Shown here: positions 1 through 9,000 of the stretch, piece by piece
Position numbering within the stretch: the stretch's first letter is position 1
How the letters are laid out: every line of letters starts with the position of its first letter
From: Saccostrea cucullata
Lineage: Eukaryota
Length of the DNA stretch: 64,000 nt
Direction of reading: 5' to 3'
NCBI RefSeq assembly: GCF_032062105.1
Contig: NW_026935164.1
Span: 62,001 to 126,000 of the forward strand
Made by a program: the position numbers

Positions 1-3000
1 AGGAAATCCACCAGAACAACTAGACGGAGCAAGGTTAGGACTCATTTAATCATTGTCAGTCATATGTGGCATCTTACAAAATATCTTTGATACATAAAGT
101 ATTTAAAATATTTTGCTTTTTCTTTCAGAAGCCACCAACAGCAGGTAGTCATGGTGGACGGAAGAGGAAACAGACGGTAGGAGGACAATTTAAGGTGAGT
201 GTGCCTGATCATTTGTGGTTTGCATGTATGTAAATATACTGCAGATCACCCAATAGAGTTCTTGTAAATAAAAACTGATTTTCAAATATATATTAAGAAT
301 GTAGATTGCTGTCTTTTTGCACTATTGTTGTCTCACTGTTGTTTATAAATGTTAAGACCTCCCTGAGTATTCTGATGGAGAGAATGATGTCCTCATCCCC
401 AGTGTTTGTACGATGTCTGAAGCCAAATCATGTCAAAGTCCCAGGAAAGTTTGATGATAGCTACATACAAGACCAAGTAAGAACTGGATGCAGGCAATCA
501 ATGTTGACTTTGATTACTTAGCTTATTGGTATTGGTGCAATTTATAAACATTGTGTAGAAGAGTATCAAAATAACTGTAAATTTAAAAGTAAAGACCTAG
601 AAAAATGATATGAGAAGAAAAGAATTGCATCCTTAAAAGTTGAATTGCAAATCTGTCTATCTACGTTTTTGTACACTGGTATGTTTGCTTTAGTTATTGT
701 ACACTGGTATGTTGGAGACCATTAAGATTAGAAGAGAAGGGTTTGCAGTAAGGCCATCATTTGCAGAATTTGTAGAAAAGTTTGTATATTTTATTAATAT
801 TTTGAAATTCTTTTGTATCCAAGCACTGTCTTGTATTTTTTGTGAGTGAATATAAAATGCTGTCATAAGATTTAATGGTTTTAATTTTTTTTCATTACAG
901 ATACAAAATTATTGTATGTGAAGCAGCATTACCAGGGACAAAAGAAAATTGTTATAAAATTCTAAAGGCCAGCAAAATAGCTGGCTGGCAGATAGGGTAA
1001 TCTTCTTTCTAATTTTTTAAACAGTTAAGTCCAGCTTGAAAAATTCTTTGTTCTTAATTCTTAATTTTTTTAAGTGGATGGGTACTGGGGGACAGTTTTT
1101 TTTTTTTAAATATTGTAGTTTTCAAACTTTTGTTACAGAGCAAAAGTTATAAACATAATTGTATAAGCAATTAATTGATAAACCAAAAAAAAAACAGAAA
1201 ATGAAACAGCTTCAATATCCTAAAAGCTTGAAACCTTGAAAAAAAATACCCCAAAAAAGCTGAAAAAATTTAAGGTTGGTTGCATTTTCAGTGTTTTGTA
1301 GGTAACTGCAAACAAGTGAATTTAAATTTTTATTTTAGGCCTTAGGTTTATATGAATTATGCTTAGAATAATGTTCAGTAAAATGTCTTTCAAACGAGTT
1401 ACACATATTTATATGTTTAAGTGCAGTATTTTAAAAAAATTACATGTACCTTGATATTTCAATATCAAATTGGGTTTTTTTTTTTCATTTCAGCAAAACT
1501 AAGGTTTTCATGAAATACTTTCATTTAGAACAGCTTTCAGATGTTTTAAAAACAATGGGTGTTTCTGCCATAAAAATTCAGAAAGGTATGTAAAATATAT
1601 TTACATGTAATATAACTATGAGGTTCAGCTTTTAGATTTGATAAGAATTTAACAATAAAAAAAGAGTAAAGAGATAATGTGGCTGAGATCAATTATGCAT
1701 GAAGTGATTTTATTTCAGTGGTAAGGGGATTTATTGGTCGTCAGGAATACAAGCGAAGACTTGCTAAAGCTAAAAGTGAAGCAGAAAGATTAAAGCATTT
1801 GGCTGATGATATTTATAACCTTAACATTCATCTGTGTAATCAACTGCAGATAGCCAAACAAAATGATGATAATATTCCATCTAGTAAGTATGCTGCCAAT
1901 ACCTAGTGACATCTTAAATTACCCAACTGAAAAGAATGAAAATTGAGCTCTCTATCTCTCAAATTTTAAGAAAGGCTTAGTCAAAACTTGTAATAAAACA
2001 TCTATGCTTTTTATTGAAGATTTTTATTTATATATCTGTGATACAAATTTTATCCTCTACATGCATATATATATATATAAAATAAAGGGGAAAAAAGCTG
2101 CAAAATTGTGTGGTTTTTATTTTGATAATAAATGATTCAGATAAGACAGAACTGCAGTGATTGTCTTTTTACAAGGTTTCTTTGGTGTTCCTGATGGCTC
2201 TGACCTTCCACCAATCCCTGATTTCACTGATGTTCAGTCTGTACAGATGAGTACCAGGAGTTATGAAAAACCAGCACCAAAAAAGACTTTTCATGAAATG
2301 GGCACCCAGGTATGTGTTGTGAAATTGCTTTTAAACTTTTAAAATAAGGATACCTTGATTATACCCAACTCTGAAGGAGAGGGGTGTGTGCTATTTTACC
2401 CATGTAAATCTGTGTTTGTCTGTCCAAACAAATTTTTGTCACAGTTTTCTCAGCAACCACTTCTCCCAAATGCTTGAAATTGTAGCACATTCTTTGTTTC
2501 GGCATGCCATATGGTGAGATTCATTTTTATATGAATCCATTGTCAGCTTCCTGTTGTCTGTCTGAACGAAATTTCTGTCCCAGTTTTCTCAGCAACTACT
2601 TGAAATTTCAGCACACTTTTTGTTTAGGCATTGGGTATGGTGGGTTTCAAACTTGTAAGTACCCAATGTTAACTTCCTGTTTGTCTGTAATTCTGTCTAA
2701 ACCAAATATTTCTGTGAAAGTTTTCTCAGCAACAACTCATCTCAGATACATAAAGTTTAAGCAGTGATACACTCTTTGTTTTGGCATTCCATATGTTTGG
2801 ATTTTTTATGTCAACATCTGATGTTTATATACCTGTTTATCTCTTCTTCTGTCCAAACAGTGTATATTCACTTAAGACTGGTAGTATTACTAGTGAGCAT
2901 CCACTGGTTCACAGACCTCTTGTTTAAAGTGTTCCGAATAGGAACTGAAATAAATGTAAAAAAGATTATTTTATATTTTTGAAAAAGAAAAAAAGTGTTG

Positions 3001-6000: not shown

Positions 6001-9000
6001 CAACATGTTGTGTTTTAGCACCTGACTCGTCCTTATGTGTGAGTCATTCTTCCTGTCACATCAAAAATGCATCCTATAATAACCCAGATGTACCCTGTTT
6101 TGCATGAAATACATGTGTAATGAGTCTACTTGCATTCTGTGTACAAATTTCAAATGTTTATCGAAGCCATGCATTTAGATCTGAAACTGGGTTTATCAGT
6201 ATATCAATTATGAAATCATTTAACCTATCTTTAATTACCAGACTACAATATGATGGCTAATGTACTCTGAACAAAAAAACTTGGAATGGCAAGCAGAATT
6301 TCATAATCAGTAATTATTTCTATTAAAAGTGTATGAACTGTTTGGTTACATTTTTAGCTGCAACCAAGTATATTAAATTTAAGCATGTTTTATGTGTATG
6401 TAATTAGTAATGTAGGCTACAAAATTTATATTACTGTAATATCACATATTTTCGTGGGGCCAAATTTTCGGGTTTGAGGAAAAATTGTTGGTTCATTTTG
6501 ATTTCGTGGATGAAGAACGTTTTAGTAGTTTTGCATATGAAAATTTACATTTCATGGTGGGCATGAATTCGTGGGTCTCTTCATACCTCGAAAACAACGA
6601 AGATTAAACCCCCCGCGAAAATTATTGATTTGACCATATATTCTGTATTCATATTATTTGTTTTCATAGTTACATGTACTAGCTATTGAAAAGCTAGTTT
6701 ATTAAAAACACTCATTTTTGCCCACCCTTAGAGCAGAATGCAAGAGTAACACTGTTATGTCATTTTTTGTTTAAATTTTTATGTTTTTTGTTTTGGTTTC
6801 ATTGCTAACGACTACCGTTTAAGGGGCTTTTGTTTGTTGAAGTTACAAACTAAGCATTCAATGCTTGAGCATGGCCATGTTTTTTTTATTTCACAACAAT
6901 GAATTTAAGAAGTGCATAGAGCCTATTAAATATTTACTAATACTTTCCTGATACAAAGAAATTTGATTATGTTGAAGTATTAAAAATGTTTTTAGATAGA
7001 TATTCACAAAGATTATTTCTTCTTTGATCATTTTTTATTTCATTTTCTATAGTTTTTGCATTCTCGGAGTATCATACGTTGAGACATCAAAACTTCAATA
7101 TTAATTTTTAAAGTGTGTTATCAGATGCTAATTAATATGATTACAGAGGGGTGCATCTCGCACAAACCGAGTCCAAGAAAATCAGACCAGCAATAGTCAA
7201 GTGACTTCAAATGACTCAGCCCCTCCAGTTCCAGAGCGCAGTTACTCTATGGCTAAACCTGTTCAACCACAGGCTTCGGTTATGAGTAACCGCCCCCTTC
7301 CTAGGAGACCTGATGAGGCATATCAAAGGCTTCTTAAAAATCAGGTACAGTAAAAGTTACTATCCTTCCAAGTTTATATTCCCCATATTTTTTTTTTGTC
7401 TTCAGAAATGTGGAAATAAGATCTAAAAATATTATGAAATAGATTAAAACAAGTCATTCCCTCTAAAGATACTACTGTATGATAATTCATAGGAATAATT
7501 TTATCTTGGCTAAAGTTGTTGGTTGATATCTTGTCACTACAGGTGCTTGCATGTGAAGGATTTGGGACTATTGATCAGTAAATCCATTATAAGACGTTCA
7601 ATTTGCCATTATTTCCTCATTTGTTGATTCTTATCTCTTGTCATTTACAGACCAAACAGCATGAGTATCACTGAAGAAATGGCAAAAAACTTTCGTGATC
7701 ATACTTCATTTCTCATTAAGGACCTTGGACGATTTAAACAACAGATATGATAAACCTTACTGTACCATATCACAGATCCATGACATATTAAATTAGTTCT
7801 TTATTTAGTCTTATGTTTGGTACAGATATATAGAGAATAATACATACCCTTTTCCATATCACATCCTGTATCAGCCCGAGACACCAATATCAGCCAGAGG
7901 GAAAAAGGCCCGAAGGGCTGATATTACGAGGGCTTATACAGGATGTGATGTGGAAAAGGGTATGTTTTATTATATTTATTACATACTTAGTAATAAAATA
8001 CAGTTGAGAAGAAAATAAGTAAATAATCATGCATGGACTTCTTACATACATGTACATAGTCTAATGTCTCATAAGATTTGGGTTTGTTTCTATTTCTATT
8101 TCAATGCACTTGATCCGTAATTTGAAAATATTCTATAGTATTACATGTATTTGTAAATTAAGATTAACCTTAATTTCAAAAAGTTAAAATTAAGAGAATA
8201 TGAACCCACCAAAAATTGTGTATGAGTACAAGTACTGTTATTGTGGTTTAATTTACTAAGGGTGTGATATTGACGTCACAATAGCCGTATCAGCCCTGCA
8301 GGGCTGATATGGATTTGCAGGGCTGATACGGATATCAGCCCCGCAAATCCATATCAGCCCTGCAGGGTTGATACGGCTATTGTGACGTCAGCCATATCGC
8401 ATATGCAAAAAACCTGTATTTATTACTAAGTGTGTAATAAATACATGTATATTTCACATATCAGATCTTTTTCTTTTGTTTGTTTTGTTTGAAATGAAAC
8501 ATATTATTTTGTCTTTGAAATGAATATCATAGTATCTGAAGAATAAAATTCTCCCCAGAATCAATACATATCAAAGCTTTAATTCCTTGTGAAAGGAATG
8601 TTTTATTGCGTAAAATATATTATGAATAAATGATAATAATACATGTGTGAATTTTCTGTTGACATTAAGTGTCCATTGTCATTCTTTTGTGCAATAGGTC
8701 TTAAATTAATGACAAATATGCATATATTAAGTAAACTTCAGGTTTGACCTTCATTTACAACCTAACATGTGTCCACCCTTCCACTGCTTACTTTTATTGG
8801 TTGAAGGTAGAAAATCACTGTTTCAGAAAATTTATAATTCAAAAATTAATTTTTTCAGGTTGCCACTTTAAACAAAGATGGCTATCCTTGGATATATTGA
8901 AGTCCTTTGGACCTTTTTATTGCCTTAGCTGTTATTACATCAATGTATTGAAATATATATATTAGTACAACAGAGTGGTTGGTTAATCGAGTACCTGTTA

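What the first reader, a model, noticed from the sequence alone, without database searches (positions are those of the whole stretch)
357..7674. Myosin motor fused to an SH2D7/SH2D4-type SH2 adaptor tail
Splice phases link motor, IQ and SH2 exons into one frame. The SH2 region has the upstream WFKETQ motif, the SxxGxDRxRHxxIxQLxNxxYII stretch and the PCGQ..DYxEL end. I recall these from vertebrate stand-alone adaptors SH2D7 and SH2D4A/B. The tail also has class II (PPVPER) and class I (RPLPRRP) SH3-ligand motifs and several tyrosines. SH2-bearing myosins are rare (class XXVIII as I recall) and largely uncharacterised. Inference: a motor that carries phosphotyrosine cargo, and SH2D7-like adaptors might derive from its detached tail.
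Basis: partly seen in the sequence, partly recalled or inferred. Interest (0 to 1): 0.65.

Follow-up and report, generated by a model that had tools for sequence, protein, structure and literature searches.

The report
Oyster class XXVIII myosin with SH2 tail
This is the back half of an oyster-type gene for an already described kind of myosin motor whose tail ends in a phosphotyrosine-binding SH2 domain, and that domain is closely related to the one in a small group of vertebrate signalling adaptors.

Summary
Positions 1-7674 (+) carry 16 GT-AG exons in one consistent frame. They encode the last part of a myosin motor, one IQ motif, a linker, an SH2 domain and a proline/tyrosine-rich end. The motor's first ~548 codons lie upstream of the window.

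Motor and SH2 belong to one gene. 53 of 54 near-length relatives carry both Pfam domains. Several sit on intron-free contigs of 3.3-4.5 kb.

The architecture is not new. It matches class XXVIII myosin as described in 2007: IQ, short coiled coil, SH2.

The SH2 carries conserved extensions on both sides, a module of about 129 residues. This module is shared with vertebrate stand-alone adaptors. The closest named one is HSH2D, at 44-54% identity. SH2D2A-like and SH2D4-like groups follow. SH2D7 could not be named.

A tree places vertebrate myosin tails among the HSH2D/SH2D2A-type adaptors (support 93/87). An AU test does not reject the alternative (p 0.09). The "detached tail" idea is therefore favoured but unproven.

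The window's exons were searched one by one.

The parts
1..33 (+). Exon a. It is cut by the window start and encodes RKSTRTTRRSK in the motor loop-2 region.
   Evidence: Translated; donor AAG|gttagg. It matches P0001 residues 549-559, read by eye.
129..194 (+). Exon b, encoding KPPTAGSHGGRKRKQTVGGQFK (end of loop 2).
   Evidence: It matches P0001 ..KPPAAGSQGGRKRKQTVGGQFK. No Pfam hit on its own.
357..476 (+). Exon c, motor: TSLSILMERMMSSSPVFVRCLKPNH...
   Evidence: Pfam Myosin_head positions 565-603 of 679, E 4.4e-7. tblastn 93% to P0001 582-623.
694..779 (+). Exon d, motor (SH1 helix/converter): LLYTGMLETIKIRREGFAVRPSFAEFVEK.
   Evidence: Pfam Myosin_head positions 605-630, E 1.4e-4. tblastn 96%.
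901..996 (+). Exon e, converter.
   Evidence: tblastn 89% to P0001 648-683. Splice sites.
1494..1585 (+). Exon f: end of the motor and first half of the IQ motif (..AIKIQK).
   Evidence: tblastn. In P0001 the motor ends at residue 690 and the IQ is at 707-725.
1719..1883 (+). Exon g: second half of the IQ motif (VVRGFIGRQEYKRR) plus about 35 residues of heptad-like helix.
   Evidence: tblastn 87%. IQ seen in orthologues. No Pfam hit for this exon alone.
2176..2309 (+). Exon h, linker (FFGVPDGSDLPPIPDF...HEMGTQ).
   Evidence: tblastn 93%. Donor CAG|gtatgt, phase 0.
2310..3777 (+). Intron between the motor/IQ half and the SH2 half. It holds three diverged copies of a repeat of about 138 bp (2416-2837).
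   Evidence: the repeat finder families D1-D4. The frame closes 10 codons into the intron.
3778..3974 (+). Exon i: acidic Ser-rich linker, the WFKETQ lead-in helix and the start of the SH2 (WFHGVISR, Arg alphaA2).
   Evidence: tblastn 90%. 16 homologues, 15 of them with motor and SH2. No PDB or Pfam SH2 hit on its own.
4834..4923 (+). Exon j: SH2 alphaA to betaC (ESETLLKGKPRGCYLIRVSESRFGYTLSF), with Arg betaB5.
   Evidence: Pfam SH2 positions 11-40, 22.1 bits. Best PDB hit is HSH2D 2cs0, E 9.2e-5.
5157..5274 (+). Exon k: SH2 betaD to alphaB (GGDRTRHYMIDQLPNKKYIIIGEPKVHRNLKDLVEYHKN), with His betaD4.
   Evidence: Pfam SH2 positions 44-77, 22.9 bits. Weak PDB hits: CrkL, SYK, HSH2D.
5370..5417 (+). 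Exon l: C-terminal extension of the SH2 (VKISNWNGYLTEPCGQ).
   Evidence: tblastn 94%. PCGQ is conserved in 48 of 55 invertebrate myosin tails.
5563..5634 (+). Exon m: end of the module (EHGVCDYQELVGDNMYFKLEENSQ).
   Evidence: tblastn 89%. DY.EL is found in 44 of 55 invertebrate myosin tails.
5753..5791 (+). Mini exon, probably a cassette exon (NKSSHQATRNPQR).
   Evidence: tblastn 71% to P0001 988-1001. Absent from Ostrea edulis isoform X2, P0003. Sites tttacag|AAT and AGA|gtaaga read. My first coordinates were one base off.
7147..7344 (+). Exon n: distal tail with PPVPERSY and RPLPRRPDEAYQRLL.
   Evidence: tblastn 90%. Motif conservation and in the A3 consensus.
7651..7674 (+). Last coding exon (TKQHEYH, then stop TGA).
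   Evidence: P0001 ends ..TKQHEYH.
7787..7997 (+). Candidate poly(A) signals: ATTAAA at 7787 and AATAAA at 7992.
   Evidence: Pattern scan only. No transcript evidence.

Best explanation
The region is the 3' half of an oyster orthologue of the class XXVIII (Myo28) unconventional myosin. It is a single gene. The product has a motor domain with no N-terminal kinase, one IQ motif, a short helical stretch and an acidic/proline linker. Then comes an extended SH2 module of about 129 residues: a lead-in helix WF.ETQ, the canonical SH2 and a PCGQ..DY.EL extension. The protein ends in a distal tail with two conserved proline motifs, each followed by a tyrosine.

Shown here:
- the exon structure;
- the single-gene architecture in relatives;
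- the SH2 identity, with all phosphotyrosine-binding residues in place;
- its kinship with the SH2 of HSH2D, SH2D2A-like and SH2D4-like adaptors.

Inferred:
- The SH2 docks the motor on tyrosine-phosphorylated partners.
- The PPxPxRxY and RPLPxxPxEAY motifs act as SH3 ligands and phosphorylation sites, as they do in the TSAd/HSH2D adaptors.
- The protein therefore works like a TSAd-type adaptor tied to an actin motor.

Whether it moves cargo or only tethers and strains it is unknown.
For: Gene structure. 16 exons with canonical splice sites and consistent phases. They are collinear with P0001: 85-96% identity for 12 of the 13 exon matches and 71% for the mini exon. Pfam on single exons gives Myosin_head for exons c and d, and SH2 above the gathering score for exons j and k.

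One transcript. 15 of 16 hits to exon i and 53 of 54 near-length hits to the tail module carry PF00063 and PF00017. Proteins of 1026-1075 aa sit on contigs of only 3296-4521 nt (P0004, P0007, P0008, P0062, P0064, P0069, P0072, P0076). That leaves no room for introns, so these contigs are transcript-like.

Orthologue domains. P0001 has Myosin_head at 9-690, IQ at 707-725 and SH2 at 871-946, with no kinase.

Class description. [quoted passage not shown] Myo28 is listed as a conserved animal class absent from arthropods (PMC13520260, passages). None of the named hits among the 54 is from an arthropod.

Binding competence. R878, R896, S898 and H916 (P0001 numbering) are invariant in 32 of 32 aligned myosin-SH2 proteins and present in window exons i, j and k.

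Kinship of the SH2.
- HSH2D is the best PDB sequence hit for exon j (E 9.2e-5; the next hit is 0.15).
- HSH2D is also the best fold match of the modelled gastropod tail (2cs0, E 3.9e-10, 45% identity).
- 12 stand-alone proteins from named fish and frogs score E 1e-35 to 3e-23 at 44-54% identity. Ten of them are named HSH2D.

Tail motifs. PPxPx[RK] lies within 150 residues after the module in 31 of 50 invertebrate myosin tails and in 18 of 47 HSH2D-clade proteins. [RK]P[LVI]PxxP is in 26 of 50 invertebrate myosin tails.

Works-like basis (abstracts seen in the search listing only). The TSAd SH2 binds VEGFR2 pY951 and activates Src (PMC3405501). The TSAd proline-rich region is needed for Lck modulation (PMC1553471). 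TSAd regulates actin polymerisation (PMC4499191).
Against: - No transcript from this species was seen. The junction 2309->3778 rests on orthologues.
- The 5' two thirds of the gene are outside the window, so the motor's ATPase motifs and the lack of a kinase domain were seen only in orthologues.
- The IQ match of P0001 is just under Pfam's cut-off (19.6 against 20.3 bits). Three of the other five orthologues scanned are clearly above it (23.2-24.0), one is at the cut-off (20.3) and P0006 scores 21.5.
- Class XXVIII is defined by motor phylogeny. I could not run that test, because no named Nematostella, Xenopus or Gallus reference and no outgroup myosins were in hand.
- No binding partner, phosphorylation or motility datum exists here or in the papers I found.
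- The motif regular expressions were written after I had seen the sequences.
Confidence: 0.88

Rival explanations
1. There are two neighbouring genes: a short-tailed myosin ending after exon h, and a separate HSH2D-like adaptor gene starting in or before exon i. Under this reading the orthologue models are automatic read-through fusions.
For: The intron 2310-3777 is the longest but one in this stretch and carries repeats. An in-frame ATG lies 15 nt upstream of exon i, read. The junction is phase 0/phase 0, which phase alone cannot confirm. One short protein, P0021 (263 aa, starts with Met just before the module, contig 1383 nt), could be an SH2-only form in some unnamed species.
Against: Exon h has no stop and ends at a consensus donor. 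The frame closes only inside the intron. Upstream of exon i the frame has stops at 11 and 28 codons, and exon i starts at a good acceptor. Intron-free contigs of 3.3-4.5 kb encode the whole motor-to-SH2 protein in related species. The fusion is conserved from a sponge to amphioxus and in a 1075-aa relative that I take to be vertebrate, collinear at 46% identity over 983 residues.
Confidence: 0.03
2. It is a class III myosin (myosin-IIIb), as the public names of its orthologues say. That would make it a kinase-motor of sensory cells.
For: NCBI names the orthologues 'myosin-IIIb-like' and UniRef names them 'non-specific serine/threonine protein kinase'. Sebe-Pedros et al. 2014 place SH2-bearing myosins of choanoflagellates and filastereans in a 'myosin III-like' group (PMC3942036, passages).
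Against: None of the six orthologues scanned has a protein kinase domain, and the motor starts at residue 9-10. Class III is defined by the N-terminal kinase (PMC3942036). The tail has an SH2, which class III lacks. The names are similarity-transfer labels.
Confidence: 0.05
3. The resemblance to HSH2D, SH2D2A and SH2D4 adaptors is ordinary SH2-superfamily similarity and says nothing special about descent.
For: All SH2 domains share WFHG, FLIR.S and H.. motifs. The fold search lists at least 500 SH2 chains at E <= 0.001.
Against: The similarity runs through about 129 residues, including about 25 residues before and about 30 after the Pfam SH2. All 236 stored family members match that whole module. 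HSH2D stands three orders of magnitude above the next SH2 for exon j. Identity to fish and frog HSH2D is 44-54%, against 25-37% to the other SH2 structures listed.
Confidence: 0.04

Closest known systems
Class XXVIII myosin (Myo28; Odronitz & Kollmar 2007)
   Same: Motor, then one IQ, a short helical stretch and an SH2 near the C-terminus, with no N-terminal kinase. Present in cnidarians and some vertebrates and absent from arthropods.
   Different: Nothing structural. This is a mollusc member. The founding list named only Nematostella, Xenopus, Gallus and some fishes and said most Metazoa had lost the class. The hits show it in at least seven phyla.
HSH2D (ALX, hematopoietic SH2 domain-containing protein)
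   Same: The whole extended SH2 module: WF.ETQ lead-in, LIRVSESR.GY.LS, R.RH[YF]MID and PCGQ..DY.EL. Identity is 44-54%. It is the best PDB hit by sequence and by fold. A PPxPxR motif lies about 40-45 residues after the module.
   Different: HSH2D is a stand-alone protein of 320-420 aa with the SH2 at its N-terminus and no motor. It was seen only in vertebrates here.
SH2D2A (TSAd), and a third unnamed sister clade that may be SH2D7
   Same: The same module and the same adaptor logic: an SH2 plus proline-rich SH3 ligands and tyrosines. In the tree they sit next to the myosin tails I take to be vertebrate.
   Different: They lack PCGQ (0 of 27 and 0 of 15) and DY.EL (1 of 27 and 0 of 15). They have no motor. 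The SH2D2A label rests on one Atlas look-up (score 0.95). The SH2D7 label is only by elimination, using the family table of PMC9783222.
SH2D4A / SH2D4B
   Same: The module is 39% identical over 152 residues, PCGQ and DY.EL are kept, and the SH2 is at the C-terminus as in the myosin.
   Different: The lead-in reads WF[QR][DE].E rather than WF.ETQ. No significant similarity upstream of the module. Its place in the tree is unresolved (59/79). The label rests on Atlas scores of 0.89 and 0.83, which are leads only.
Choanoflagellate and filasterean 'myosin III-like' myosins with a C-terminal SH2 (Sebe-Pedros et al. 2014)
   Same: A motor plus a C-terminal SH2, tied to tyrosine-kinase signalling. Four EukProt or unnamed motor-SH2 proteins of 719-959 aa form a separate clade that joins the sponge and coral tails.
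   Different: Their taxa could not be read here, so orthology with the animal gene was not established.
Class III myosin (MYO3A/B)
   Same: The public names of the orthologues. One or more IQ motifs follow the motor.
   Different: Class III has an N-terminal kinase and no SH2. The orthologues here have an SH2 and no kinase.

Membership tests
Class XXVIII myosin | Myosin motor domain | tested here: met
   Window exons c and d match Myosin_head positions 565-630. The orthologue P0001 matches positions 1-679, E 1.5e-221. Only the last part of the motor lies in the window.
Class XXVIII myosin | Tail made of one IQ motif followed by an SH2 domain | tested here: met
   The IQ is split over exons f and g (read). 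Pfam IQ scores 19.6-24 bits in six orthologues. SH2 exons j and k are above the gathering score.
Class XXVIII myosin | Short coiled coil between the IQ and the SH2 | not tested
   A heptad-like helix is visible in exon g, but no coiled-coil predictor was run.
Class XXVIII myosin | Motor domain groups with the Nematostella, Xenopus and Gallus class XXVIII motors in a myosin tree | not testable with these tools
   No named reference of the class and no outgroup myosins could be fetched. Indirect evidence: 46% identity, collinear over 983 residues, with P0131, which I take to be vertebrate. The best solved myosins are classes VII, XV and X.
Class III myosin | N-terminal protein kinase domain | tested here: not met
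   No Pkinase hit in the six orthologues scanned, and the motor starts at residue 9-10. The 5' end of this gene is outside the window.
SH2 domain (PF00017) | Profile match above the gathering score and the phosphotyrosine-binding Arg betaB5, Arg alphaA2 and His betaD4 | tested here: met
   Exons j and k score 22.1 and 22.9 bits against 21. R878, R896 and H916 are invariant in 32 of 32 sequences and present in exons i, j and k. The names of the residue positions are from my own knowledge of SH2 domains.
SH2D2 adaptor family (SH2D2A, HSH2D, SH2D7) | Stand-alone adaptor with an N-terminal SH2 and no catalytic or motor domain | tested here: not met
   The SH2 is near the C-terminus of a myosin.
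SH2D2 adaptor family (SH2D2A, HSH2D, SH2D7) | SH2 sequence groups with the family | tested here: inconclusive
   The module is clearly homologous. The oyster tail groups with the other invertebrate myosin tails. Only the tails I take to be vertebrate sit inside the adaptor group (93/87), and the AU test gives p 0.09.
SH2D4 family (SH2D4A, SH2D4B) | Coiled-coil-rich protein of about 430-460 aa with the SH2 at the C-terminus. This description is recalled. The family list is from PMC9783222. | tested here: not met
   Only the module aligns (39% over 152 residues) and nothing upstream does. The SH2D4-like clade is separate (100/99).

The most novel reading that the evidence does not exclude
The vertebrate SH2D2-family adaptors (HSH2D, SH2D2A/TSAd and a third clade that is probably SH2D7) are motor-less descendants of a class XXVIII myosin gene. 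SH2D4A/B may be as well.

The extended SH2 module is old and is tied to a myosin in sponges, cnidarians and bilaterian invertebrates. In the vertebrate stem the gene was duplicated. One copy kept the motor and the others kept only the SH2, proline and tyrosine tail. I recall the human genes lying at 19p13, 1q23 and 15q25, which would fit a two-round genome-duplication set with Myo28 as the fourth member. That is memory only and was not tested here.

If true, the uncharacterised invertebrate Myo28 tail is a model for the ancestral function of TSAd-type adaptors, which would then be actin-linked.
Probability: 0.4. Interest if true: 0.55.

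Novelty: already known. Interest (0 to 1): 0.3.

Why it matters
The gene itself is an ordinary orthologue of a myosin class described in 2007. Its oyster relatives are already in public protein sets, though under misleading 'myosin-IIIb-like' or 'protein kinase' names.

The useful results are three:
1. The architecture is far more widespread in animals than the founding description said.
2. Its SH2 is not a generic SH2. It is a 129-residue module shared with the HSH2D/TSAd and SH2D4 adaptors of vertebrate immune and endothelial signalling.
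3. There is a testable hypothesis that those adaptors are detached myosin tails.

I found no paper that states this link. Liu et al. 2011 was not held, and the supplements of the 2026 myosin survey were closed.

Tried and rejected
- Exon i alone against the PDB: no hit at E <= 10. Exon k alone gave only weak hits (E 0.49-1.9). Exons b, e, f, g, h, m and n alone against Pfam gave nothing. Exon i gave only a chance-level DUF1797 hit.
- Naming the unnamed representatives through their clusters was not possible, so clade labels rest on two Atlas look-ups and one family table.
- Liu et al. 2011 (SH2 proteins in 21 species) is not held.
- A self-association job on residues 700-775 of the orthologue P0001 (IQ plus helix, two copies) gave no verdict: score 0.02, controls not run. 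It says nothing either way.
- Extended homology between SH2D4-like proteins and the myosin linker upstream of the SH2 was suggested by the long profile matches. BLASTP did not confirm it, so I dropped it.
- AU test of 'bilaterian myosin tails, vertebrate ones included, form one side of a branch': not rejected, p 0.09. The groups were named after I had seen the tree.
- A search of the phage collection with 7700-8400 was beside the point and found nothing.
- Rfam found no RNA family in the window.
- The bacterial/archaeal genome collection was not used because it cannot hold this gene.
Full-length statements rest on database orthologues.

Full report
WHAT IS THERE

The window is AT-rich animal DNA (GC about 31%, no N). 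On the + strand, positions 1-7674 carry 16 exons. All internal sites are AG/GT, and the lengths sum to 1578 nt in one frame ending at TGA 7672-7674. The mini exon is 5753-5791, read. My first coordinates were one base off.

Each was translated and searched on its own, and everything said about a full-length protein comes from database orthologues.

Single-exon Pfam results:
- Exon c and exon d match Myosin_head positions 565-630 of 679.
- Exon j and exon k match SH2 positions 11-40 and 44-77, each above the gathering score.
- The other eight exon peptides sent gave nothing meaningful.

The IQ motif is split between exons f and g. Exon n holds PPVPERSY and RPLPRRPDEAY.

ONE GENE OR TWO

Exon i alone, searched against longer proteins, found 16 relatives. 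Fifteen of them (1058-1972 aa) carry both Myosin_head and SH2, and the nearest are oysters at 88-92% identity.

The Saccostrea echinata protein P0001 (1074 aa) maps collinearly onto the window from residue 582 to 1069. By eye, residues 549-581 match exons a and b. The window therefore holds about residues 549-1074, and the first half of the gene lies upstream.

With the tail module as query, 53 of 54 near-length hits have both domains. Eight of them are proteins of 1026-1075 aa on contigs of 3296-4521 nt. Since the last 525 codons alone span 7.7 kb here, those contigs must be intron-free, which means transcript-derived. They read straight across the 2309/3778 junction (P0004: HEMGIQ|ADGSSSDSEF).

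I put the two-gene alternative at about 3%.

WHAT KIND OF MYOSIN

Orthologues have Myosin_head from residue 9, one IQ, an SH2 at about 870-945 and no kinase. The public names 'myosin-IIIb-like' and 'non-specific serine/threonine protein kinase' are therefore misnomers.

[quoted passage not shown] They found the class in Nematostella, Xenopus, chicken and some fishes and said most Metazoa have lost it. A 2026 survey lists Myo28 among 15 conserved animal classes and finds it absent from arthropods (passages). Its species table is a supplement I could not open.

My hits come from bivalves, gastropods, cephalopods, an annelid, a hemichordate, echinoderms, amphioxus, a homoscleromorph sponge and corals. 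None is from an arthropod.

The architecture criteria are met. The defining motor phylogeny could not be run for lack of named references and outgroups. Indirect support is the 46% collinear identity over 983 residues with P0131. P0131 sits in a clade with the paddlefish fragment P0028.

THE SH2 MODULE

The homology unit is larger than Pfam's SH2. It has a lead-in (..VRWFKETQ..), the SH2 itself, and an extension (..EPCGQ....DYQEL).

A profile of six mollusc and coral tails, run against 1.84 billion representatives, gave 2287 hits at E <= 1e-3 and 196 at E <= 1e-30. Of the 138 new representatives among the best 150:
- 20 have a motor piece;
- 75 have the module at the N-terminus;
- 28 have it in the middle;
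- 15 have it at the C-terminus.

Named stand-alone relatives are 12 fish and frog proteins. Ten are called HSH2D, at 44-54% identity and E 1e-35 to 3e-23.

HSH2D is also the best PDB hit for exon j (E 9.2e-5; the next is 0.15). It is the best fold match of an AlphaFold model of a gastropod tail fragment as well (pLDDT 81; 2cs0, E 3.9e-10). In that model the WF.ETQ stretch is a helix (residues 2-15) directly before the SH2, and the RPLP..P.E.Y..L end is also helical. I could not inspect contacts.

Two Atlas look-ups give automatic names (leads only):
- the C-terminal-SH2 clade is nearest clusters called SH2D4A and SH2D4B (0.89, 0.83);
- one N-terminal clade is nearest SH2D2A (0.95).

A review table groups SH2D2A, HSH2D and SH2D7 as one family and SH2D4A/B as another. 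By elimination, the third N-terminal clade is probably SH2D7. That label is not tested.

Exon by exon, the window is closest to invertebrate myosin tails. Next come the myosin tails I take to be vertebrate and HSH2D, then the others. SH2D4-like scores lowest only in exons k and n; in exons i, j, l and m it is level with or above SH2D2A-like or the third clade.

DETACHED TAIL?

A FastTree of 203 modules was built; 33 of 236 were dropped for covering fewer than 110 of 129 columns. An IQ-TREE of 60 rows that I picked from it followed.

Both trees put the myosin tails I take to be vertebrate inside the vertebrate adaptors. In the IQ-TREE:
- HSH2D + [vertebrate myosin + (SH2D2A-like + third clade)] has support 93/87;
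- the inner pair has 91/84;
- the SH2D4-like clade joins at only 59/79;
- invertebrate, sponge, coral and four unnamed motor-SH2 proteins lie on the other side.

Holding all bilaterian myosin tails together costs 15.8 log-likelihood units, with AU p 0.09. That is not a rejection, and the groups were named after I had seen the tree.

For the idea:
- The motor-linked form is the phylogenetically wider one.
- Named stand-alone forms came only from vertebrates.
- A PPxPx[RK] motif sits at a similar distance after the module in invertebrate tails (31 of 50, median offset 39) and in the HSH2D clade (18 of 47, median offset 45).

Against the idea:
- There is no root.
- Most rows are unnamed.
- There are only 129 columns.
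- The module also occurs in other contexts: RING-B-box-SH2 (P0107) and PDZ-SH2 (P0098). It has therefore been shuffled more than once.

I give the hypothesis about 0.4. Four searches found no paper linking these adaptors with myosins. Liu et al. 2011 was not available.

HOW IT PROBABLY WORKS

Shown: the residues that hold phosphotyrosine in SH2 domains are invariant in 32 of 32 aligned myosin-SH2 proteins and present in the window. These are Arg alphaA2, Arg betaB5, Ser betaB7 and His betaD4; the position names are from my own knowledge. Two proline motifs, each followed by a tyrosine, are conserved in the distal tail.

Inferred: the SH2 docks the motor on tyrosine-phosphorylated proteins. The distal tail recruits SH3/SH2 proteins such as Src-family kinases, as TSAd does. 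This rests on abstracts seen in the search listing only: the TSAd SH2 binds VEGFR2 pY951 and activates Src, its proline-rich region is needed for Lck modulation, and TSAd regulates actin polymerisation.

With one IQ and a short helix, it is open whether the protein dimerises and walks or acts as a monomeric tether.

VERDICT

The feature belongs to an already known myosin class. The kinship of its SH2 with the HSH2D/TSAd/SH2D4 adaptors is real. Their descent from a detached tail is a reasonable, testable and unproven idea.

Noticed in passing
window 16069-56476, minus strand: Exons of an HCN-type cyclic-nucleotide-gated cation channel, convergent with the myosin gene. Ion_trans_N (E 2e-22) is at 55535-56476. 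The pore segment with CIGYG is at 19743-20117. The end of a cNMP-binding domain plus a long Ser/Lys-rich tail is at 16069-17082.
   Followed up: partly
window 35009-40127 and 45715-46654: A 170-bp satellite array of about 30 copies at 97% matches, which raises GC to 0.45. A second array of 5.5 copies appears to be in inverted orientation. Both lie inside the span of the channel gene. It recalls the 166-170-bp oyster satellites, but that is memory only.
   Followed up: no
window 2416-2837: Three diverged direct copies (61-91%) of a unit of about 138 bp, inside the intron that separates the motor/IQ exons from the SH2 exons.
   Followed up: no
window 7828-7979 and 8271-8390: Two hairpin-like inverted repeats just downstream of the stop codon. 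One has 50-nt arms (88% complementary, 52 nt apart). The other has 58-nt arms (97% complementary, 4 nt apart). They share an ATCAGCCC motif and may be MITE-like elements in or after the 3' UTR.
   Followed up: no
window 9454-9754, 42159-42666, 43911-44291, 27127-27216: Further short tandem arrays with periods of 144-154 bp, and a (TA)45 microsatellite.
   Followed up: no
proteins P0107 and P0098 (database hits, not in the window): The same extended SH2 module occurs in a RING + B-box + SH2 protein (387 aa) and in a PDZ + SH2 protein (1034 aa), both of unnamed origin. The module has been recombined into contexts other than myosin.
   Followed up: partly
proteins P0006, P0028, P0002 (database hits): Likely annotation errors in public records. 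The Pinctada model P0006 fuses the myosin-SH2 gene to an anoctamin. Polyodon 'HSH2D protein, partial' (P0028) clusters tightly with the motor-bearing P0109, so it is probably a Myo28 tail. UniRef labels several orthologues 'non-specific serine/threonine protein kinase' although no kinase domain is present.
   Followed up: partly
window 2309/3778 junction compared with P0002: The Crassostrea virginica orthologue has eight extra residues (AFKPIPEE) exactly at this junction. This suggests an alternative acceptor or a micro-exon in that species. I saw no counterpart in the window.
   Followed up: no
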